From Lama glama (taxonomy: Eukaryota): DNA of 64,000 nt. Of the stretch, positions 2,114-35,300 are shown in pieces. The notes beneath the pieces were generated by a model that saw only the letters and a list, made by a program, of their open reading frames with translations, ran no database searches and had not been told where the DNA came from. Both the position numbers and the translations under genes were made by a program. The stretch spans positions 930,001 through 994,000 of the forward strand of contig CM052831.1 of the NCBI GenBank assembly GCA_028534125.1, read 5' to 3'. Every line of letters begins with the position of its first letter. The first letter of the stretch is position 1.

Positions 2114-5100
2114 GTGAGGACCCGCGACGCCGGGAGGGTGCGGGTGGGCCGCCTCGAAGCGCGGGGCTCGGGGGAGACGCGGGCGGCCCCGCCGCAGACC
2201 CCCGCCCGCAGGCTCCCGGCGCCAAAGCAGGGCCGCCCCGGTCGCAGCCGCCCTCGGAGCGGGGCGCGGAGGCAGGTGCTGGCGTGGCTGCTCCTGGGGG
2301 TCCTGGAGGGGAGGACTGCGACGCGAACGCCCGGAGGAGGAGGAAGGGCGAAGAGAAGGGCCTGGAGGCCAGATCCTGGGGGGCGGGCCTGGGGTTTCCG
2401 GACGCGGCTCCTCTGCTGCGCTGTGGACCCAGCGTTGGGAACGCCTCGGGCCCAGAATCTGTCTCTGGTTCTTGGAGATTCGGAATCTCCTAAACGCAGC
2501 TGAAGCAAATCGGGCTCCGGAGTCGCGTCGCTGAGGGCCGGGTGCGGAGGGAGGGGCTGCCCGTTTGGGATATGAGACACCGGTCTTCTTTGGTTCTTTC
2601 TCCCCCAGTCCCGGGTCCCACCCCCCACTTCCGACCTCCCCTGGGCTAGTCCCAGCCCTCCTGACCCCCACGCTGCCCCGGGTCCCTCCCCAGCCCTGGG
2701 TGCCACCTGGGGGTTGAGAGCCCCCAAAGCGCAGTGCTTCTCGGAGCACTCTGCCATCCGACCTGGGCATCCCCCCACCAGCCTGCTCCCCACCATCCTC
2801 GGTGAACCCCCTCACACATTCTGTGGTTATTGCGTCTCCTGACTTCCACCTTCTAGTTTGTCCACTTCTCCTTTCCACACTACCAAGATGCCCTCCCCAC
2901 CTCCCCCAACCGGGAGGCCAACCTGCCACCCCCAGCAGCCAGAGGCGCCCTCCCCTCTCCCAAATGCCTTCAGCCCAGATTCTCAGCCTCTCCGGCCCTG
3001 GGGCCTTGTTCTCTGACGCCCGGGAGTCCCCATTTCCACACCCCGTCTGTGCTGGTCCCTTTGCCTCAGTGCCTTTCCTACTCTGGTCCATGGTCACCTG
3101 CCCTCACCTGGGGGAGGCTGCCCCTTCCCCTTCTGCAGGTCTCCTCCAGATCGGGAACCGTTCTGACCTGGGCTCTGACCTCCCCGCCCAGGTACCTGCT
3201 GGAGCAGCGAGACGTGGAGGTGAACGTGCGGGACAAGTGGGACAGCACCCCCTTGTGAGTGCCGGCGGTGGGTGGTCTGGGCGGCGGAGGGCCTGCAGGC
3301 CTGATAGCCCCGTGCCTGCCTCCCCCTCAGGTACTATGCCTGCCTCTGTGGACACGAGGAGCTGGTGCGCTACCTGCTGGCCAACGGTGAGTGGGGCGGG
3401 GCGGGGCGGGCGGGGCAGGCGGGGGCCTGCTTCATCCGGACCCCTCAGCAAGTGCTGCTCCCCTGCTTTTGGAACCTCTCCTCTACGCAGACACCCCGGC
3501 CAGGCATCACCTCTCCCCTGCGTGTCCCGTAGAACCGGAACATGCCTTCCTGGGCGCACGTCATGACCCGCACCCCCGGCGCCTGCGCTCTCTCCCTCGG
3601 CCCCTCACGTGCCACCTCCTTGGTGCTGCACTGCCAAGCTTGCTCCTTCTCGGGGCCTTTGCACTTGCCCCTCCTCCTGCTAAGACGGCCCTTTCCCAGA
3701 TCTTTTTTTTAATTGAAGTGTAGTTGATTTACACTGTTGTGTTAGTTTCTGGTGTACAGCATAGTGACTTAGTTACACATACATATATATATTCTTTCTC
3801 ATTATAGGCTATTGCAAGCTATTGAATACAGTTCCCTGTGCTCTACAGTAGGACCTTGTTGTTTATCCTATATCTAGTTGTGCAGATCCGCTAGTCCCAA
3901 ACTCCCAATTTATCCCTCCACCCACCTTCCTTCCCCGCTAGTAACCGTAAGTTTGTTTTCTATGTCTGAGTCTGCTTCTGTTTTGTAAATGAGTTCACTT
4001 GTACCATACTTTAGGTTCCACATATAAGTGATATCGTGGTATTTTTCTCTTTTCCTGACTTNNNNNNNNNNNNNNNNNNNNNNNNNNNNNNNNNNNNNNN
4101 NNNNNNNNNNNNNNNNNNNNNNNNNNNNNNNNNNNNNNNNNNNNNNNNNNNNNNNNNNNNNNNNNNNNNNNNNNNNNNNNNNNNNNNNNNNNNNNNNNNN
4201 NTTCCATGTCTTGGCTGTTGTAAATCGTGCTGCTGTGAACATTGGGGTGCAGGTGTCTTTTCAAATTGGCATTCCCTCCAGATATATGCCCAGGAGTGGG
4301 ACTGCTGGATCATATGGTAAATCTGTTAATTTTTTTTTAAAGGAATCTCCATAGTTTCCCATAGTGGTGGCACTGAACTACATTCCCACCAGCAGTGTAG
4401 GAGGGTTCCTTTTTCTCCACGCCCTCTCCAGCATTTATCGTTTGTGGACTTTTTAATGACGGCCATTCTGACTGGTGTGAGGTGATACCTCATTGTAGTT
4501 TGGATTTGTGTTTCTCTGATAATTAGTGATACTGAGCATTTTTTCACGTGCCTCTTGGCCACTTGTATGTCTTCACTGGAAAAATGTTTGTTTTGTCTCC
4601 TGCCCATTTTTTGATTAGATTTTTTTTCTGTTGAGTTGTATGAGCTGTCTGTTATATTTTGGAAAGTAAGCCCTTGCCAGTCATATCTTTTGCAAATATT
4701 TTCTCCTATTTGGTAGACTGTCTTTTCGTCTTGTCCATGGTTTCCTTTGCTGTGCAGAAGCCTGTAAGTGTAGTTAGGTCCCATTTGTTCACTTGTGCTT
4801 CTACTTACATTGCCTGGGTAGACTGCCCTTGGAGAACACTGCTATGATTCATGTGAGAGAATGTTTTGCTTTCTAGCAGGTGTATGGCGTCTTGTCTTAT
4901 GTTCAGGTCTTTAAGCCACTCTGAGTTTATTCTCTGTGTGGTGTGAAGGCTTTCAGCTTTTCACCATTGAGTATTATGTTGGCTGTGGGTTTGTCATAAC
5001 TAGCTTTTACTGTGCTATGTTCTCTACCGATTTTGGTGAGTTTTTATCATGAATGGATGCTGAAATGTATCAAGTGCTTTTTCTGCATCTGTTGAGATGC

Positions 5101-9428: not shown

Positions 9429-9611
9429 AAAATACAAACTTTTACACCTGTCCTACAATATGCTTCCCACCTGCCCCCCAAAAAAGGAATGGAGGCTTTG
9501 CAGATATTCTTTCCTCTACCTGGAAAACTCCTACACAGCCTTCAATGCCCCGTCTCACTGCAACAGGAACTGAAACCCTAGAGGGTGGTTAGGATGCCAT
9601 CACAAAGTTAG

Positions 9612-10759
9612 CGATGTTCTCCTAGAGCAGTCTACCCAAGTAATAGAAATAAAAGCAAAAATTAACAAATGGGACCTAATTAAACTTACAAACTTGCACA
9701 GCAAAGGAAACCATAAATATAATGACAACCTATGGAATGGGAGAAAATATTTGCAAATGATGCGACTGACAAAGGCTTAATTTCCAGAACATATAAACAG
9801 CTCATACAACTTAATAACAAAAAGCAATCCAATCCAAAAATGGGCAGACGACATAAACAAGCAATTCTCCAGCGGAGACACACAGATGGCCAATAGTCAC
9901 ATGAAAAAATACTCAGTATCATTATCAGAAAAATGCAAATCAAAACTACAATAAATTATCACCTCACACCAGTCAGAATGGCCATCATTCGAAAGTCCAC
10001 ACATGACAAATGCTGGGGAGGCTGTGGAGAAAAGGGGAATCCTCCCACACTGCTGGTGGGAATGCAGTTTGGGGGAGCCACTGTGGAAAACAGTATGGAG
10101 ATTCCTCAAAAGACTAAAAATAGACTTGCCATACGACCCAGTAATCCCACTCCTGGGCATATATCCAGAGGGAACCTTAACTCAAAAAGACACCTGCACC
10201 CCGATGTTCACAGCAGCACTATACACAATAGCCAAGATACGGAAGCAGCCTAAATGTCCATAGACAGATGACTGGATAAAGAAGCTGTGGTACATTTATA
10301 CAATGGAATACCACTCAGCCATAAAAGTAAAATAATCCCATTTTCAGCAACATGGACCTAGAGATCGTCATTCCAAGTGAAGTCAGCCAGAAAGAAAGAA
10401 AAATACCATACGATATCACTCATGTGGAATCTAAAGGAAAGGAAAAATGACACTATGAACTCATCTACAAAATAGAAAAGACTCACAGACATCGTAAACA
10501 ATCTTAGGGTTACCGGGGGAAAGGGAGTGGAAAGGGATCAATTTGGGAGTTGGAGATTTGCAAATGTTAGCCACTATATATAAAAACATTTTAAAAATTT
10601 CTTCAGTACAGCACAGGGAACTATATTCAATATCTTGTATTAACTATTAATGAAAAAGCATGAAAATGTACATACGTGCGTATCTCGTGACTGGGACACT
10701 GTGCTGCATGCCAGAGAGGGACACACTGTAACTGACTCTACTTCCATTGGACAAAACCC
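9612..10759 (+). mobile_element. 5'-truncated L1 (ORF2 C-terminus plus 3'UTR) with target-site duplication
   Basis: [22 protein letters not shown] and [40 protein letters not shown]; TSD cacaaagttag at 9601-9611 and 10760-10770. Confidence 0.95.
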
Positions 10760-12154
10760 CACAAAGTTAGGAGTGGTCGCACAAGGTTTAGGGGCAGTGC
10801 CTTAGTCCCTGGAGCAGACGTCTTGAAAACATAAAGATTTCTCACTTTGGGGAAAGTCTGAACCGCAGCTTCAGGCAGGGACTCCTGAAGCCCTGGAGCT
10901 GGGCAGCTCCCTCAGGTCTGAGAGGCCAGTTGGTTCCCTGCACCTGGGCCCGGGGACCCAGCCTGGCGCCACTCGAAGCCCTGGCGTCCTCATCCAACTA
11001 AACAGAGCAGCACCCCCCACGCGGGTGTGGCAATCCAATGGGGCACGAGGAGGCCACAGCAGGCGGGGCTCAGCCCACGGGAACCTCACCGTGACCTGGA
11101 AGATGTCACATGAGCGGTTCTGAGCACACGGCACGGCCCCTCCTTACCTGTGAGTCCTAAGACCAACTCCCTTATTCCTCAGGCCGCGGGGTGGTCGTCA
11201 CCCAGCCTCCGCAGTAGCCACTGGTCAGTGCCCGTCCTGCAGCCTCGGCCCTGGGGGAGCCCTGCCTCGCCCCCAGCTCTCTCACTGCTGGCTCCCTCTG
11301 GGCGGGTACTGAGCCTGGGCCCCCCTCCTTGTGAGCCTCAGGCGCACACCTGCCTGAGCTCCCCCCTTACCATGGGCGCCTGGCTCGTGCCCCAGCTCCC
11401 TTGTATTTAGCTGTGACTGACACACCAGGTCTAGGTGCCAGGAAAAACGGTAGATGAGGTCTCTGATTTAGTCCTTGAAAGGCGCACCCCGCCCCTCTCC
11501 TTTCCTCACTCCTGTGGGCTGGAATGAGGATGTGGTGGCAGGAGCAGCCACCTCGGTCCCCGGTCTGGAACCTCACACTCAAGACTGCAGGGCAGTGAGA
11601 GAGGCGGTGGGAGGAGAGGAAGGCGTGGCTGCTCCTCCCTGCCAGCCTCCACTTGGTCTCAGCTGTCTCCCGCCCCCACAACCCGGGGCAGCTGCCCTGC
11701 TCTAGAGCCCCTCCAGCCAAGGCCCGGGTCCCTGCACACACTATCCCAGGATGGCTGGCAGCTACTGGGGGTGCCCTCGGTTCCTCAAAGTCCCATTTCT
11801 GGGACCAACATGCGCTTCCCCCCACGTCTTGCCCTGAGCCCTCTCAGACGTGCTCCCTCCTGTTCACCTGCCCTCTCCCCCGCTGGGCCCACCCTGCACT
11901 CCATGTCTTTCTTCTCATCCCACCGCTATCCGCCAGGATTCTGGGGACAGCCCCAAGGCCGCACGGCGCTTGGCACATGATGCTCACAGGAGGCAGGAAG
12001 GACACTGCCCACAGTTCCCCCAACGGGGCTCAGGTGCTGGGCCGTCCTTCAGGTCTTCACGCTGCCTGGGGCCTCTGCACAGGGGCCAGGCCAGCTGTGC
12101 CCATCCCACTGACACGTTCCAGAGTGAGTAGGCATTTCAGCAGAAGTCACCTCA

Positions 12155-14320
12155 GGAGAGCGGACGAGAAGGCGGAGCAGGGCCCTGCGCCCCTGCGCCC
12201 ACCAGCGCCGCCGAACCGCGCCCACCTCCGACCCACCTCCGAGGGGAAGGACCGGCACCCCCCAGAAGGGGCCTTCCACAACCGGAGACAAGAGGGAACC
12301 AGCACGGGGGGGGGGGGGCGCCCGGCGCCCAAGACCGGCCCCAGAGCGCGCGGCTTCGAAGGCCAGCGGGGCTGGACCTCGGGGCCCGCACGCCCGGGGG
12401 AAGCAGAGACCCCACTCTCCGAGGGCCTCACCAGCCCCCACGCGCGCCGGGCCCCGGGCAGGAGCCGGGGGGGCCTACCTGCTGCTGGACTGGGGGCGTC
12501 TCACTGGGGGCCTGGACGCTGGCGGCCGTCACCCTCGGGCGCGGCCTCTCCGCGTGGACGCTGTGCGGGGCGGGGCGCCAGCCGGGACCCTCCCTGCCGC
12601 TCGTGGGCGCCGACGCCTGCCCCGCAGCCTGCAGGCCGCGCTACCTGGGCGGGGACACGGCCCCAGCCGTCCGCAGACAGGCCGCCTGGGGAGCCCCTGA
12701 GCCCGCCCTCCCCCCTCCCCACCCCTCCCCCACCCCCCAGCGCGCAGGCCCCGCCCCTCCCGCCGGGAGGCCCGCACGCGCCGCCAGACCAGCCTCACCC
12801 ACCAGGCGGCAGACAGCACAACCCGCCCCGCCGGCGGACCCTGCCTGGGACCCGCTGGGACCCGCTGGCCCCGGCCCTGCCCGCTAGCGGCCTGCACAAC
12901 CGACGGGACACCTGGGACCCACCGCCCACTGTCAGGAACCACCCCCGCCCCCCACGACCTGAACCGAGCTCTGCACCCTGGGCCCTGCAGGCAGCCTCCA
13001 GGGACCGGCTCCGCCTGCCAGCCGTCCGGCCCTAACCCCGGGCCTGGCTTCCCCTGCCAGTGGTGGGGGGCAGCCCCGGAGTCCTCGGGACGCCGACTCC
13101 ACCCGCCGGCGAGCCAGCCCGGCCCCTAGGACTCCGCGACCGCCCCTGGGGACCAGGCCCCGCTAAACACAGCCCGCAGTGTCCGCACGAGGCAGGGCCT
13201 GGCCCCCAACCCGGCTGGGGGCCAGCCACGCCTCCTCGAGCGCTCGCAGCCCCCCATCCCACCAGAGGGACCCACGCAGCCCCCCTGGGGGGCCTAGAGC
13301 GCAGAGCTGGGGTGACGCGAGGGGAGTGCGCGGCGGGGACGCGGAGGACGCCTCCCACAGAGGTCGCCCCTCCAAGGGGGACACACAACTAGCCCACCAC
13401 GTACGTGAAACACAACCAGCAAGTGAGATAAAACGAGGCGGCAGAGGGACGTGTTCCAGACGAAGGAAGAAGGTAACGTCCCAGAAGGAGAACGAAGCCA
13501 AGGGAGACAGGCAGCGCACCCGGGAGGCAGTTCAGGGTCACGGTCGTACAGAGGACCNNNNNNNNNNNNNNNNNNNNNNNNNNNNNNNNNNNNNNNNNNN
13601 NNNNNNNNNNNNNNNNNNNNNNNNNNNNNNNNNNNNNNNNNNNNNNNNNNNNNNNNNNNNNNNNNNNNNNNNNNNNNNNNNNNNNNNNNNNNNNNNNNNN
13701 NNNNNNNNNNNNNNNNNNNNNNNNNNNNNNNNNNNNNNNNNNNNNNNNNNNNNNNNNNNNNNNNNNNNNNNNNNNNNNNNNNNNNNNNNNNNNNNNNNNN
13801 NNNNNNNNNNNNNNNNNNNNNNNNNNNNNNNNNNNNNNNNNNNNNNNNNNNNNNNNNNNNNNNNNNNNNNNNNNNNNNNNNNNNNNNNNNNNNNNNNNNN
13901 NNNNNNNNNNNNNNNNNNNNNNNNNNNNNNNNNNNNNNNNNNNNNNNNNNNNNNNNNNNNNNNNNNNNNNNNNNNNNNNNNNNNNNNNNNNNNNNNNNNN
14001 NNNNNNNNNNNNNNNNNNNNNNNNNNNNNNNNNNNNNNNNNNNNNNNNNNNNNNNNNAGAGGTCGCCCCTCCAAGGGGGACACACAACTAGCCCACCACG
14101 TACGTGAAACACAACCAGCAAGTGAGATAAAACGAGGCGGCAGAGGGACGTGTTCCAGACGAAGGAAGAAGGTAACGTCCCAGAAGGAGAACGAAGCCAA
14201 GGGAGACAGGCAGCGCACCCGGGAGGCAGTTCAGGGTCACGGTCGTACAGAGGACCAGGGCTCGGGAGGGGAACAGATGCACGCAGTAACTGAGAATTTC
14301 AAGTCGGTGGCAGCAGAGAA
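12155..14320 (+). mobile_element. L1 5'UTR plus ORF1 N-terminus remnant, GC/CpG-enriched (forms an orphan CpG island at about 12140-13450)
   Basis: YY1-like start gagaaggcgg (12166-12175); cetartiodactyl L1 5'UTR-like blocks (gaaggccagcggggct, cctacctgctg, ggacgctggcggc, ctgggcggggacac, agaccagcctcacccaccagg); from 13433 TRRQRDVFQTKEEGNVPEGERS then frameshifted ETGSAPGRQFRVTVVQ, resembling the L1 ORF1 start MRRQRNMFQTKEQ...EIGNLPEKEFRVMIVK. Confidence 0.78.
13558..14057. other. Assembly gap (500 N) flanked by an identical 199-bp duplication
   Basis: 13359-13557 equals 14058-14256. Confidence 0.97.
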
Positions 14321-14885: not shown

Positions 14886-14891
14886 TTTATT
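14886..14891 (-). terminator. MGLL: MGLL distal polyadenylation signal (AATAAA on minus strand)
   Basis: TTTATT on plus; on the minus strand TGTA and ATTAAA (14919-14924) lie just upstream and GT-rich sequence downstream. Confidence 0.7.
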
Positions 14892-17103
14892 AGGGTTAGC
14901 TATGGTGTACACCAGTCCTTTAATAGTTCTAAACTGGTAACGCGCTAACAGCATACAGGTGGGGTGTGGCTGAGCTGCAGTGACGAAAAAACCAGTAAAT
15001 CGCCTGGAAAATCCTTGTGATCCTAACGGGTGTGTGTGAGCGGTCAGTGGAGAAGAAAAGGGAGCGTGGGGCCCTGCAGGGGTTTCCAGAACGTCCTTCA
15101 CAGCTCCTTCTGTGAGCCCCAGGGCCCCAGAGCTGCGGGGGAAGCTGGGGTGTCTGCTGCATGCCCGCCCCCTCCCTGCAAAGGCACAGGCCCTGGCGAC
15201 CCCTTGTCCTAGGAAGATTTTCAGCTATGAAACCGGTTTCCGTGTGGCCCACATGGCCTCTGAGTTTTGGACGGCGCTGTGTTCATATGTGTGCTTGGGC
15301 CGAGTCCCCAGTACTGCGTCCATCCCCCTAGGTGGCGTTTGGATCTGCTTCATGTCCAGGGCACCTCCCTGACCTCTGTCCTGCTCTCACCTGGAGGCCA
15401 GGCCATTGTGACCTCGCATCCTCCAAACCCACCCCCTGCAGCACTGTGACAGCGGCTGTGGCGCTCTGGGTGGCCCGCCAAATGAGCTGGGTTCTGGACT
15501 CACTCAGCACTGCGGGGAAAGGAGGCGCGCAGCCCTGTCCAGACCCCCAGACCCCGCCGCACGCACTCCTGGGACACAGGGGACGTCCTCCCAGCACAGC
15601 CACCTGCTGTGTCCTCTCCTGGTTAGGAAACAGTCTCGGTTTCAAATAACTTTTTTCTTTTAATCATGGGCAATTCTTTAACGAGATCTGTAAATGCAAC
15701 TGAAGGTGCCTCTGTAAGAACTTTCATATAAATAAATTCATGCATCGAAAGATTCCTGGTCAGACCACATGCCTGACAGTGAACTTGGGAGACGGCCGAG
15801 CCGTCGCATGCTCCTGGGGAGGCGGGCGGGAGGTGTGGGGCTCTGTGTGACCTGCCTGTCACAGCTCATAGCTGGGCGAGGACCCCAGGCCTGGGTCTTG
15901 GTTTGCGGTGGAGTTTCTGCTGTTGGTCAGCCAAGGAGCAGAAACACCCCCAAGGCTGCCCAGGGAGCAGCAGGCCCGGCTCCTCTGTGCACCTTCTCCA
16001 TGATCTTCTGCTCCCAAGAGAAGTCAGGGAAGGAAGATGGGGCAATGAAGCCCCTCTCTATGAGGACCGGGCCTGTCCCCTCCCGAGGGGCAGGGCAGCA
16101 GAACGCGAACGCTTACAGTGACCAGCTCTGGCTCCACACGTGTGGGCAGGGCCCTGGGTGGACCCAGAACCAGCCCCGGAAGGTTGTGTGGGCGCCTGTC
16201 AGAGGGCCCGTGGCCTTGGGGCCCCCACCCATGGTCATGTCTGCAGTCGGGGCCTCATGAGGTAACCGCGCATCCCATCTGAAAGTGGAAGTAGCCCGCG
16301 GGGGCGGGGACCCCATTTATTGCTGGCACAAGTGAGGGCCAGGGTGGATGGGCTTGGCACCGAGAGACAGGCCGCTGGGCGGCCCCTCCAGTCACAGCCT
16401 CAAGCCTGCAGTGTGGCCAGGCCTCCGCATGGGGACCTCCTCGCCGCCAGAGGTAGGAGGATCCCAGGCTGGCTGGCCGGGCAGGCGGGACTGGGGGGCT
16501 GCACGGAGCCCAGGCACCAACCTTCACGCCCCTCGTTCCCACCCACCAGTCTCTGCTTTGGAATTGACATTATGTCAGCCATTCTCTTCCACACAACCGT
16601 CCTCCCAGGCTGTCAGGTAACACCAGTCAGCGAGGAGAGACTGTCCTGACACGCTGCGCACACGGAAGGGGAGCAAGGGTCCCCACGGACGCCTCCTTCT
16701 GGGCCAAGCCCCACCTGCCCAAAACCACTCGCAGCCCCCGCAGACAAGGAGTGACACGGTTGTGGGTGGAGATAAATTCTGAGGACAGGCGGGCATTTCT
16801 GGGCCTCGGAGGGCAGGTGAATCGGCCCGGGGACTAGATGCCGCCCGGCATCTCTCGGCCAGAGAGGGGCCCCAGCGTGGGGTGGGGGTGAGGGCCCCCA
16901 GTTGTTATTGCAGCCGGTGTGGGCGTCTAGGACACTGGAGTCCTGGGTGCCCTGTGGGGTGGGAGAGGCCGGGCAGGGCTCTGCTGTCTAGGGCCTTCCA
17001 GCACAGTCTCTTGTCTGGGAGATGCTGTGACCTTCTCTGCTTTTGCACAGTGTCCACCCCTGAAGGCAGACCCAGTGGTGGACAGCCTGGCAGGCGACAA
17101 GAC

Positions 17104-17109
17104 TTTATT
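17104..17109 (-). terminator. MGLL: MGLL candidate proximal polyadenylation signal
   Basis: AATAAA on minus strand, about 120 nt after the stop codon, in an A-rich context. Confidence 0.5.
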
Positions 17110-17231
17110 TTTAATTGTGCTAGGGAGTCCTCCAATTTGTTTTGTTTGTTGGCAAGCCACATCTGAGAAGCCAGCTCCTGCCCGTTCTCTGCCTACTTCC
17201 CAGGCCGTGGCCCGCCGGCCGGCCAAGACAT

Positions 17232-32300: not shown

Positions 32301-35300
32301 GGGCCTCTGAGGGAGAGACCCCCCCATCCATCGTGACCCTAGTAGGCAAAGTCAAGTTTGTACAACCAGAGTTGACGCTAACTCCACAGGGACCCCAGAC
32401 CCACGACAATCAGACACACCGTCACTGGAAAAGAGAGGCAATGAGGTGGAAGAATCTGTCTCGGGGACTCAGAGCCTGGCAAACTTGGGCTCGGACCTTG
32501 GTTCTGAATCTCTGAGAAAGCATGTGGTCCTCAGTTTCTCCATCTGTAAAATGGGGATTTTGAAATGAAGTGGAAAAGCTGCTGGCAGCTGCATGAGATC
32601 AAAGTCCACAGAGCTCGTCCCCAACTGCCCTTGTGGTTTCTGGCCCTGAGGAGAAGCCCCGGTCGGCCCCAGTCCGAGTGGAGACTCCAAGAAGGAGGGG
32701 ACCTGAGCTCAGCGGCAAATGTCATGTCACAGCTGGACCTAGACCACCCCACCCAGGATGAAGGAGGACAACTCTCCAGGAAGGGAGGTCCCCTCCTGCA
32801 GAGCATCAGGGAAGCAAGCCACTGATGGCAGCCCCATCACTTTAAGTACCAGTGACTTGAGTAAGTGCCTTTATTGACCCAAGAGGTTTTAACGGCTCCT
32901 GAAGATCCTTTCAAGCTTCCGCCCCTTGGCAGACTTGACACAGGAAGGTAATTACAATCACTCTCCCCTGGAGCGCTCCAGCAAGCCAACCTGGGCCCAG
33001 GAGAGCACAGCTGCATGTGGTGCGCGGCAGGACACAGCCCCGGGCTCCGCTGGGCAAGGAGGGCACCCCCACGCAGACAGAAGAGGAAGTTCGCGTGCCT
33101 TACAGAGGAGACAACGCCCCTCAGAGCATTGCTGCTGCCAAACCCCGGGGCCGGTTCATGGTCACAGCTGAGTCCCAGCTCCCCAGGCCTCTCCTGTCTC
33201 CACCCTGTTCCAAGGCCTCCCAGAGTCTGGTGACTAAACAGCCGAGTGACAGGTGGGAGGCGCTAGCGTTGAGGGCAGCTGACCCAGGGCAGCTTCGGGC
33301 AAAGGGAGTGTCCTTCTGGAGCACACGCTGGTCTTGAGGGAGACAGTAGGCCTCACCTCGTCTATAAATTGGAAACAACCTTCCTTCCTCACAGGGCGGT
33401 GACGGAGAGGAAGTAAGACTTTGTGTCTGGCATGAGTAGGGGGTTCACAGCAGCCCCTCGCGGCTTCCCTCACCTGGCCAGGTGAGGGGTTGACGGGTCG
33501 GTGTGGGAGAAGCATCTGGAAGCACCGGGCTGGCCTGGCTCCTGCATCACAGACCTCAGGCCCCAGGGGACAACCTCCAGGCAACAGGCAGAGAAGGTCA
33601 TTTAGTAGATTACCCTCCTGGCAGGCTGAGCCCTGCCCTGACCCTAGGCAGAAATCCAGGGGGACTGGGGGTTTTGCCCCAGAGAAGGGAGTTGCTCTGT
33701 CCTCCTAGGGAAGGGTCCCTCAGTGTGCAACACCTACTGGGCAGCAAGGGGTCCACTCCACTGCTGCCTTGCCCAGGGCACAGGACGTGGGACAGGCCCT
33801 GGAAAGGGCCTCGTTAACAGCAGAGATTTGTTCTGAGACACTAGATTTCTGCTTCTAAATTCCTCCTGCTCCAAACACCTCCTGAGTACAGCGTTGAGGG
33901 CCTCTGCCCCCTCGTCTCCTGCCCAGACTAAATACACCCCAGCTTGTTGACCACGGAGCACCAAGCAAGAGCTGGGGTGGGGATCTGGCTTTGGGGCGGG
34001 GGGCTGCCATCTTCCACATGCCTGGCTGTGCTCCAGGGCTCAGGTGTCTCATGCTGCCGGCTTTAATGATTTTGGAATCCCTCCCTCAGGAACTTGCTGC
34101 TGGGAAACAAACCCCTGACCTGTCAAAGAGCCATGCTCTTGGAGAGAGGTCACAAGGTCATGACTCAGCTCCACTCTCTGCTCCTCAAAAGTGAGACTTG
34201 ACTGGGGAGGACCCCTCCACCACCACCTCAGCCAGAGGGGGTCTCTAGGAATCTGTCCTTTGGGGTCCGTAAGAGGGAACAACTGGAAAGACCCAAAGGT
34301 CAGTCAGCGGGGCCTCACCTGACCCAGGGCCACCACTGCAGGGACCCTCACCTGACCCAGAACCATCCCTGCAGGGGCCTCACCTGACCCAGGGCCACCG
34401 CTGCAGGGACCCTCACCTGACCCAAGTCCATCCCTGCAGGGGCCTCACCTGACCCAGGGCCACCGCTGCAGGGACCCTCACCTGACCCAGAACCATCCCT
34501 GCAGGGGCCTCCACTGACACAGGCCCATCCCTGCAGGGGCCTCACCTGACCCAGAACCATCCCTGCAGGGGCCTCACCTGACCCAGGTGAGGACGGAGCA
34601 CCAAGAGGTATCACTAAGCAAAAAGACCAAATAAACCCTAACCCACAGAAACAAACAGGCCAACCAAAAGAACCACCAGGAAGCACAGAGAGAGTTTCTA
34701 CCATGTGAGACACAGATGTGTTCACCTGTGGAGACGCAGACTAACTGCTGCCCACTTCCACCGGGAGGAGTCTGCACTGCACCCCCTCTCCCTCTTTTGA
34801 GCCCTATGAATGTATTATTCTAAAAATGTTCAATTAAGTTTTAAATAAAGATTCTGTGAGACCCATTCAGAAGGTTGTCAGGCAAGACTTCACATGTGGT
34901 GGGGAACCCAGACGTCTGCTGTGGGCAAATGATCACAGAGTCTGTCAGAGGAAACTGCTCCAGATCCAGGGCGGCAACGGCTCTCACCGTGGGGAGGACG
35001 TGTCCTCAGGTCTGGGGGCAACAGGAAACCTAATTTTTCTTGGTTAACAAGAGGAGGCCTGCACCCCCCGGGAAAGCTGGCTCCTGGTTTGACAAGGCAC
35101 TCTATCAGCAGGAGGCTTCGAAAGGCCGTGCTGTTGGCTCTGCCCAGAAGCCCCACCTCCGCCCCGGGGACTCAGGGGGTTGAGGGGTGATTCACAGGCT
35201 CCACCTCGGGGCCCAGCCGCCCCAGGCCCCTCGCGTACTTTATCTGAAAAGTCCCACAGTCCTGGGCTTTTCTCTCAGGGAAAACACCAGCTGCAGAAAA

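What the first reader, a model, noticed from the sequence alone, without database searches (positions are those of the whole stretch)
12155..14320. Orphan CpG island is an L1 promoter/ORF1 remnant that appears to have gained CpG: candidate exapted promoter facing the MGLL 3' end
Seen: a CpG-dense island of about 1.3 kb with no host gene, between ABTB1 and the MGLL 3' end. It begins with a YY1-like gagaaggcgg and ends in a decayed reading frame (13433: TRRQRDVFQTKEEGNVPEGERS, then frameshifted ETGSAPGRQFRVTVVQ). Knowledge: this matches the layout of a cetartiodactyl L1 5'UTR followed by the ORF1 start; old L1s are usually 5'-truncated and lose CpG by methylation-driven decay. Here only the 5' end survives, and differences from the consensus as I recall it are mostly A/T to G/C (ATG to ACG start; extra GC boxes such as gcggggcggggc at about 12565-12576). 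Inference: the element is germline-hypomethylated and/or under GC-biased gene conversion and has become a lineage-specific CpG island. Its sense promoter points antisense into the MGLL 3' UTR (distal PAS about 0.6 kb beyond the ORF1 remnant), and any antisense promoter would point to the ABTB1 3' end. Candidate donors: plus AAG|gtaacg near 13473; minus CAG|gtagg near 12478.
Basis: partly seen in the sequence, partly recalled or inferred. Interest (0 to 1): 0.72.

Follow-up and report, generated by a model that had tools for sequence, protein, structure and literature searches.

The report
GC-driven twin L1 promoters, 120 kb apart
This CpG island is the promoter end of an old jumping gene (LINE-1) that has a nearly identical inverted twin 120 kb away; the two have likely been copying onto each other and drifting towards G and C through DNA repair, and a shared splice site in them is used in RNA of a related species.

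Summary
Against 18 sibling copies it shows 84 AT>GC versus 3 GC>AT changes (33:2 without CpG sites), with G<>C changes normal: the pattern of GC-biased gene conversion. The pair brackets TPRA1-MCM2-PODXL2-ABTB1. Four public DNA runs support the twin, and a relative about 3% diverged holds both loci, so the arms were homogenised after that split. In that relative's RNA the predicted minus-strand donor (12478) splices to exons beside each twin. The 500 N and repeated 199 bp are an assembly artefact. Not shown: methylation state, a sense promoter into MGLL, function, or flipping of the block. The scan noted a similar GC-rich inverted retrotransposon pair once before, in another genome (unchecked note).

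The parts
12155..13432 (+). L1 5'UTR, now a CpG island (GC 0.77, 125 CpG against 5-72 CpG and GC 0.49-0.63 in 9 siblings)
12155..12194 (+). L1 5' terminus with a damaged YY1-type word; diverged from the twin (4 substitutions in 12162-12170, one 8-bp repeat unit). A relative carries 133 extra bp at 12156 that match the flank upstream of the twin
12195..13557 (+). Homogenised core, 1363 bp, one difference (12611) from the inverted twin at G000:C16 822081 to 819953 (- strand), 120 kb away
12479..12594 (-). Antisense exon ending at donor CAG|GTAGG (intron starts 12478); likely first exon, 5' end hinted at 12594-12634
   Evidence: X18, X19, X20
11096..12478 (-). GT-AG intron from the island donor to an acceptor at 11096, towards the ABTB1 3' end; seen in 1 of 4 RNA runs (30 letters on the short side)
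13433..14282 (+). Decayed L1 ORF1 start (about 150 real bases once the gap and overlap are removed); siblings align up to 14282; the twin continues about 450 bp further into ORF1
13558..14256 (.). Assembly artefact: 500 N plus a second copy of 13359-13557; the twin has the same gap at the same place
14886..14891 (-). Distal poly(A) signal on the MGLL strand, 0.6 kb beyond the remnant (context, not part of the element)

Best explanation
The island is one arm of an inverted pair of old, 3'-truncated L1 promoters 120 kb apart that differ at 1 of 1363 core bases and carry an extreme AT-to-GC substitution bias; the arms are likely kept alike by repeated non-allelic gene conversion, and the bias likely comes from long-lasting GC-biased gene conversion at a recombination hotspot on the island. 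Inferred chain: the L1 5'UTR stays transcribed and open in the germline; promoter-like open DNA draws meiotic breaks; repair from the allele or from the twin favours G/C, which keeps old CpGs, adds new ones and erases differences between the arms. The family's antisense donor is used at both loci, giving spliced, probably non-coding RNAs that point into the enclosed TPRA1-MCM2-PODXL2-ABTB1 block. No selected function is needed for any of this.
For: Shown. (a) Twin: only two near-identical places in the genome in three searches covering the element; 1 difference in 12195-13557; best identity among 18 siblings 85.8%, median 70.9% over 208 alignments. (b) Real, not an assembly double: in 4 of 4 public DNA runs (4 organism codes, none marked as a possible source) contigs break at both edges of the core; contig depth flank to core is 37 to 66-73 (X4), 6.5 to 9.6 (X9), 12.6 to 6.6-17.8 (X10), 27.6 to 31 (X8); X9 shows a second continuation beyond the right edge. 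(c) Older than the identity implies: RNA contigs from a relative with 37 differences in 1157 bp of unique flank hold the window locus anchored on both flanks, and a splice from the core donor to an exon at C16:857160 (+), which is colinear only with the twin. The relative's core differs from ours at about 41 of 1280 bases (11+8+22), so about 44 differences between arms are expected and 1 is seen (Poisson p 5e-18). (d) Each arm keeps ancestral letters the other lost at the edges, so neither is a recent copy of the other. (e) Bias: 84:3 (33:2 without CpG-type sites), siblings pooled 419:510; fold change AT>GC 1.7-2.4, GC>AT 0.06-0.07, G<>C 0.97-1.1, giving B about 3.2-3.6; MAFFT check 184:17; nearest other L1 piece 45:19 (Fisher p 8e-6). 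(f) Donor use in 3 of 4 RNA runs, 2 study codes. Known background: PRDM9-independent hotspots at hypomethylated regions raise GC in many placental mammals (PMC11161765, passages).
Against: The twin's private ORF1 extension has the same bias (48:1; Fisher p 1.0 against the core), so exchange between the arms is not required for the GC drift; ordinary allelic conversion at a hotspot, or a once longer window arm, must be assumed. The three located variants (12194, 12553, 12611) are all CpG>TpG, which argues for some germline methylation. The depth rise is weak in X8 and absent in one X10 contig (GC dropout is my guess). Both assemblers can flatten rare differences between arms, so identity may be slightly overstated. 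One late conversion or re-duplication event in this lineage cannot be told from many. The region is GC-rich and near a chromosome end, and one other L1 piece (C16 785-786 kb) shows 68:16 and 17:0. A<>T changes are also low (0.3-fold), unexplained. No hotspot, methylation or chromatin data. RNA comes from contigs without strand; MGLL read-through reaches the island in X15 and could feed the donor.
Confidence: 0.72

Rival explanations
1. One recent event (a long conversion or re-duplication of the twin onto the window locus in this lineage) made the arms identical; the GC bias arose earlier at the twin's locus alone by allelic GC-biased conversion.
For: The twin's private extension is as biased as the core; the twin keeps the YY1 word, more of ORF1 and a CpG-rich upstream flank; the relative's window locus carries 133 bp of the twin's non-L1 flank, which shows twin-to-window transfer.
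Against: Contigs of the relative also break at about the same right edge (14260 in X18) and at the start of the 133 bp, as if its arms are identical too despite 3% divergence from ours (inferred from break points). Beyond the core's right edge the arms share derived letters yet differ, which points to nested tracts of different age.
Confidence: 0.14
2. A selected, exapted promoter: the island is kept for regulating MGLL, ABTB1 or TPRA1 through antisense RNA, and GC boxes were gained by selection.
For: Spliced RNA from the island donor in 3 of 4 runs; both spliced products point at a gene's 3' end; the pair has lasted across a 3% split.
Against: Sequence is accelerated rather than conserved (27% of A/T sites changed), with indels of 108, 14 and 7 bp against the relative; the decayed ORF1 extension shows the same bias; this copy's YY1 word is damaged; no ATG in the candidate first exon region.
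Confidence: 0.08
3. Plain escape from methylation or regional high GC: CpGs were kept because the copy is unmethylated in a GC-rich chromosome end, with no special conversion.
For: Window o/e 0.43 and GC 0.58; 28 CpGs look ancestral; nearby L1 pieces lie at the top of their siblings' range (GC* 0.56-0.71 for the three window pieces).
Against: The bias holds without CpG-type sites (33:2, 38:1), AT>GC is raised and not only GC>AT lowered, and this does not explain arm identity.
Confidence: 0.04
4. The twin is an assembly artefact.
For: Both arms share the same gap and overlap, and this assembly holds scaffolds that look like whole mirror images.
Against: Four distinct flanks, diverged homologous edges, doubled depth in X4 and edge breaks in 4 of 4 independent runs, RNA splicing to exons beside both arms.
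Confidence: 0.02

Closest known systems
Inverted repeats around FLNA-EMD (human X palindrome P24, inversion HsInv0389) and X palindrome arms
   Same: Inverted arms around several genes, arm-to-arm divergence far below between-species divergence, ascribed to gene conversion (PMC8327919, passages).
   Different: Arms here are 1.4 kb with a 120-kb spacer (11.3-kb arms in HsInv0389, PMC3961182 table), made of an old L1 promoter; linked gene names recalled as autosomal; flipping not shown here.
Human inversions flanked by inverted transposons (HsInv0341, L1PA3, 6.2 kb; HsInv0347, THE1C, 1.6 kb)
   Same: Inverted transposon copies as homology arms (PMC3961182, passages).
   Different: Those enclose 7-21 kb and no genes; here siblings are only about 71% alike, so identity is secondary, and four genes are enclosed.
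Non-allelic gene conversion between transposon copies (Alu, LTR, Drosophila ISX)
   Same: Concerted evolution of copies that carry regulatory motifs (PMC6598467, parts 1-2 of 4 read).
   Different: That review reports raised Alu conversion under 10 kb and at hotspots; here 120 kb, near-complete homogenisation of one pair and an extreme GC bias.
PRDM9-independent hotspots at hypomethylated regions with GC-biased conversion
   Same: Promoter-like CpG-rich DNA with raised equilibrium GC outside CpG sites (PMC11161765, passages).
   Different: No break or recombination map here; 'camel', 'alpaca', 'vicugna' occur 0 times in that paper's main text; its species list is in supplements I did not open.
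Human L1 antisense promoter
   Same: Spliced RNA leaving the 5'UTR antisense; start within the first 600 bp (PMC4908685, passages); here the hinted 5' end is about 440-480 bp into the element.
   Different: In that paper ancient L1s show only minor 5'UTR antisense activity; here an old non-primate L1; the start site is only hinted.

Membership tests
LINE-1 5' end | 5'UTR homologous to a dispersed family whose copies continue into L1 ORF1 | tested here: met
LINE-1 5' end | YY1-type word at the 5' terminus | tested here: inconclusive
   Intact in the twin and recognisable in siblings at the same place; 3 changes in the window copy. The motif's name is recalled.
LINE-1 5' end | Named subfamily (Dfam/Repbase), ORF2, poly(A), target-site duplication | not testable with these tools
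   No repeat library; the 3' part is absent from this copy.
CpG island | >=500 bp, GC>=0.55, o/e>=0.65 | tested here: met
   1403 bp, 0.753, 0.69; thresholds recalled
CpG island | Unmethylated in germline | not testable with these tools
   No methylation data; 3 of 3 located variants are CpG>TpG
Concerted evolution of inverted repeats | Arm-to-arm divergence far below orthologue divergence, both arms older than the split | tested here: met
   0.07% versus about 3.2%
Concerted evolution of inverted repeats | Homogenisation in more than one lineage or repeatedly | tested here: inconclusive
   Inferred from contig break points in the relative and from 12553 T at full core depth in X4; contigs can hide a second allele
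GC-biased gene conversion | AT>GC raised, GC>AT lowered, GC-neutral changes unchanged, also outside CpG and in non-functional sequence | tested here: met
   (A<>T changes are low on small counts)
PRDM9-independent recombination hotspot | Meiotic breaks or crossovers at the island | not testable with these tools
   No DMC1 or linkage map
Recurrent inversion | Both orientations of the spacer exist | tested here: inconclusive
   No contig spans an arm with both flanks; the assembly has a gap in both arms
L1 antisense promoter | Spliced antisense RNA from a 5'UTR donor | tested here: met
   in a relative
L1 antisense promoter | Capped start inside the 5'UTR rather than read-through | tested here: inconclusive
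   Adapter-ended contigs at 12594 in X19 and X20 (one study); contigs cannot show a start

The most novel reading that the evidence does not exclude
Two dead L1 promoters form a self-sustaining pair: they stay transcribed, act as stable PRDM9-independent break sites, repair off each other across 120 kb, and so build and share one lineage-specific CpG-island promoter; crossovers between them would repeatedly flip the TPRA1-MCM2-PODXL2-ABTB1 block, an autosomal FLNA-EMD-like toggle with arms of only 1.4 kb.
Probability: 0.25. Interest if true: 0.82.

Novelty: new variant of a known kind. Interest (0 to 1): 0.64.

Why it matters
How new CpG islands arise is an open question; a recent paper finds that islands with start sites almost never hold transposons and that LINEs in islands are mostly young (PMC12582260, abstract and passages). 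Here an old L1 promoter has gone the other way: it kept and gained CpG under a bias of B about 3-4 averaged over its whole life, and is spliced into RNA. The twin makes the process testable: two loci, one sequence, a dated split, and a private extension as control. If the block flips, four genes including MCM2 sit in an inversion that short reads cannot see. Practically, reads and methylation calls cannot be assigned to either arm, and the orientation of the block in this assembly is not fixed by contiguous sequence.

Tried and rejected
Tandem duplication of the ORF1 start (13359-13557 = 14058-14256): artefact. Plus donor at 13473: no joint or shown loose end in 4 RNA runs (no cover proves nothing). 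The 133-bp piece as part of the L1 family: no sibling aligns to it and the genome search found only the twin. Second acceptor inside the window or within 10 kb of the twin: 0 matches; found at C16:857160. A coding role for that exon: read in 3 frames by eye only, no database search. Pfam on the window's own ORF1 pieces: 0 hits of 3. Orientation of the block: no record spans an arm. Polarising changes since the split: one search listed only 40 of 117 differing places. Literature: no paper with 3 of TPRA1/ABTB1/PODXL2/inversion; camelid search listing of 12 of 44 papers showed none on this locus, and PMC8605555 treats conversion only within LTR elements (passages). Caceres 2007 was not held and is cited only through PMC8327919. 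Searches were seen as listings. No supplements were opened. Earlier notes of the scan: none near this place or by sequence.

Full report
Observation. The stretch 12155-13557 is 1403 bp, 75.3% GC, with 136 CpG (o/e 0.69) in a window of 58% GC and o/e 0.43. It lies between a BTB gene on the plus strand and a hydrolase gene on the minus strand, which I name ABTB1 and MGLL from recalled gene order. The interval 13558-14256 is 500 N followed by an exact repeat of 13359-13557. RNA contigs of 2 of 4 runs pass straight across it, skipping 700 bases, and DNA contigs overlap across it, so it is an assembly gap with a graph overlap, not a duplication.

It is an L1 5' end. A genome search returned 40 scored places, 36 of them at 68-75% identity; 18 long loci were used as siblings. 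They align along the 5'UTR and the ORF1 start, and their downstream frames hit the three L1 ORF1 Pfam models in 5 of 8 frames tested at E<=0.001. Siblings begin with a CCAAGATGGCGG-like word preceded by unrelated, often A-rich DNA, at the position of the window's damaged word. Siblings are a median 70.9% alike, so the family is old. No repeat library was available to name it.

The bias is real and extreme. At columns where at least 5 siblings align and 70% agree, the element shows 84 AT>GC and 3 GC>AT changes; siblings, each left out in turn, pool to 419 and 510. Without any site that is a CpG in the element or a sibling the counts are 33 and 2. A MAFFT alignment with 9 full-length siblings gives 184 and 17. 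Relative to siblings AT>GC is up 1.7-2.4-fold, GC>AT down to 0.06-0.07, G<>C unchanged (0.97-1.1); the odds correspond to B of 3.2-3.6. Loss of methylation alone would lower only CpG decay, and purifying selection would lower everything, so GC-biased gene conversion fits best (inference). A younger L1 piece 1.5 kb away shows 45:19, mildly above its 29 siblings, so there is a regional effect but it is much weaker; one piece at C16 785-786 kb is also strongly biased (68:16, 17:0). Of 137 CpGs, 54 lack enough siblings, 28 look ancestral, 24 gained, 31 ambiguous.

The twin. The same searches found one other near-identical place, on the opposite strand 120 kb away (C16 822081 to 819953). From 12195 to 13557 the two differ at one base. 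Their edges are homologous but diverged: the twin keeps the YY1-type word and about 450 bp more ORF1; the window copy keeps the ancestral G at 12162 and 6 bases at 14257-14262 that the twin lost. The arms point away from each other and enclose Tmemb_40 exons (TPRA1 type, minus, 864-867 kb), MCM motifs (plus, 890-891 kb) and a podocalyxin-type end, and ABTB1. The twin's private ORF1 extension is as biased as the core (48:1), so arm-to-arm exchange is not needed for the drift.

The twin is real. This assembly does hold mirror-image scaffolds, so I tested four public DNA runs, one per organism code, none marked as a possible source. In all four, contigs break at both edges of the core. Depth rises from 37 to 66-73 in X4, 6.5 to 9.6 in X9, 12.6 to 17.8 in one X10 contig (6.6 in another) and only 27.6 to 31 in X8. 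A single contig covers the core where two 3%-diverged copies would give two. In X4 a C>T at 12553 stands at full core depth, as if both arms carry it, but such contigs can drop a second allele. Break points imply that 12194 varies at the window locus between T and the twin's C (X8, X10; inferred, the place is not printed). All three located variants are CpG>TpG while fixed changes run AT>GC, which fits a fixation bias on partly methylated DNA; three sites are few.

The identity is younger than the pair. The four RNA runs laid come from a relative with 37 differences in 1157 bp of unique flank (3.2%). By recalled knowledge this fits Old World against New World camelids, about 16-17 million years; not tested. 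The relative has the window locus: contigs join the ABTB1-side flank to the core and the core to the MGLL-side flank. It also must have the twin: in X18, X19 and X20 the donor at 12478 is followed by letters that match C16:857161-857190 exactly, on the plus strand behind a pyrimidine tract and AG, 35.4 kb from the twin's donor and colinear only with the twin. The relative's core differs from ours at about 41 of 1280 bases plus indels of 108, 14 and 7 bp. Arms that had not exchanged since the split should differ at about 44 sites; 1 is seen. In the relative the window locus also carries 133 extra bases at 12156 whose ends match the twin's upstream flank (27 of 30 and 25 of 30 letters, compared by eye; length 133). 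That piece is not L1. Either the window arm began as a duplicate of the twin and this lineage lost the piece, or the arms inserted separately and the relative gained it by a conversion that ran into the flank; the junction falling exactly at the L1 terminus favours the second, but an outgroup is needed.

Transcription. The donor is ancestral in the family (6 of 9 siblings). Contigs of X19 and X20 end in adapter at 12594 and X18 ends at 12634, a weak hint of a start 440-480 bp into the element, where the human L1 antisense promoter lies (PMC4908685, passages). In X15 one contig runs from the MGLL 3' region into the island, so read-through is a rival source. Nothing here shows sense transcription into MGLL, and nothing shows RNA in the window's own species.

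Mechanism. Shown: L1 origin, GC bias of the conversion type, two arms, homogenisation after a 3% split, donor use at both loci in a relative. Inferred: an open, transcribed 5'UTR acts as a stable meiotic break site, as promoter-like hypomethylated DNA does in many placental mammals (PMC11161765, passages); repair from the allele or the twin drives GC up and keeps the arms alike. Untested: methylation, breaks, flipping, function.

Comparison and novelty. It works like the FLNA-EMD inverted repeats and X palindrome arms (PMC8327919, PMC3961182, passages) and like conversion between transposon copies (PMC6598467, parts 1-2 of 4). It differs in short arms, long spacer, old age of the family, and in the arms being a CpG-island promoter with shared splicing. 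I found no report of this locus (open-access full text only). One earlier unchecked note of this scan describes GC-rich homogenised inverted retrotransposon arms 880 bp apart in another genome; it came after my reading and I did not test it. Verdict: new variant of a known kind, interest 0.64.

Noticed in passing
G000:C1039020 (L063, L064) and G000:C130172: Scaffolds that look like whole mirror images: paired hits at positions summing to length+1 (1,685,052 and 512,902); L063 and L064 are 100% identical over 3757 bp. Likely assembly artefacts.
   Followed up: partly
L038:2080-2700 (G000:C16 822080-822700): Single-copy CpG-rich flank upstream of the twin (822001-823000: GC 0.61, o/e 0.74); the first 133 bp differ from the relative at 8 of the 60 letters seen, faster than the 3% flank.
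   Followed up: partly
L041:7160 onward (G000:C16 857160, + strand): Acceptor exon of a spliced RNA from the twin, about 7 kb from the nearest TPRA1-type exon found, converging on that gene; probably non-coding.
   Followed up: partly
L043:5163-6328 (G000:C16 785163-786328): Another L1 piece with strong AT>GC bias (68:16 and 17:0), 34 kb outside the twin; a possible second hotspot or subfamily mismatch.
   Followed up: no
window 9607-10755 and 3700-4950: Younger L1 3' pieces (about 85% to siblings), mildly GC-biased; used as controls.
   Followed up: yes
window 34309-34588: Tandem repeat of about 65-bp units, 92% alike.
   Followed up: no
L016, L009, L029: Three sibling L1 5'UTRs keep 56-72 CpG, against 5-37 in the other six; L016 leans AT>GC (100:65).
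   Followed up: no
window 14886-17115: Six poly(A)-type hexamers on the MGLL strand; RNA contigs of the relative extend beyond the last one into the L1 remnant.
   Followed up: partly
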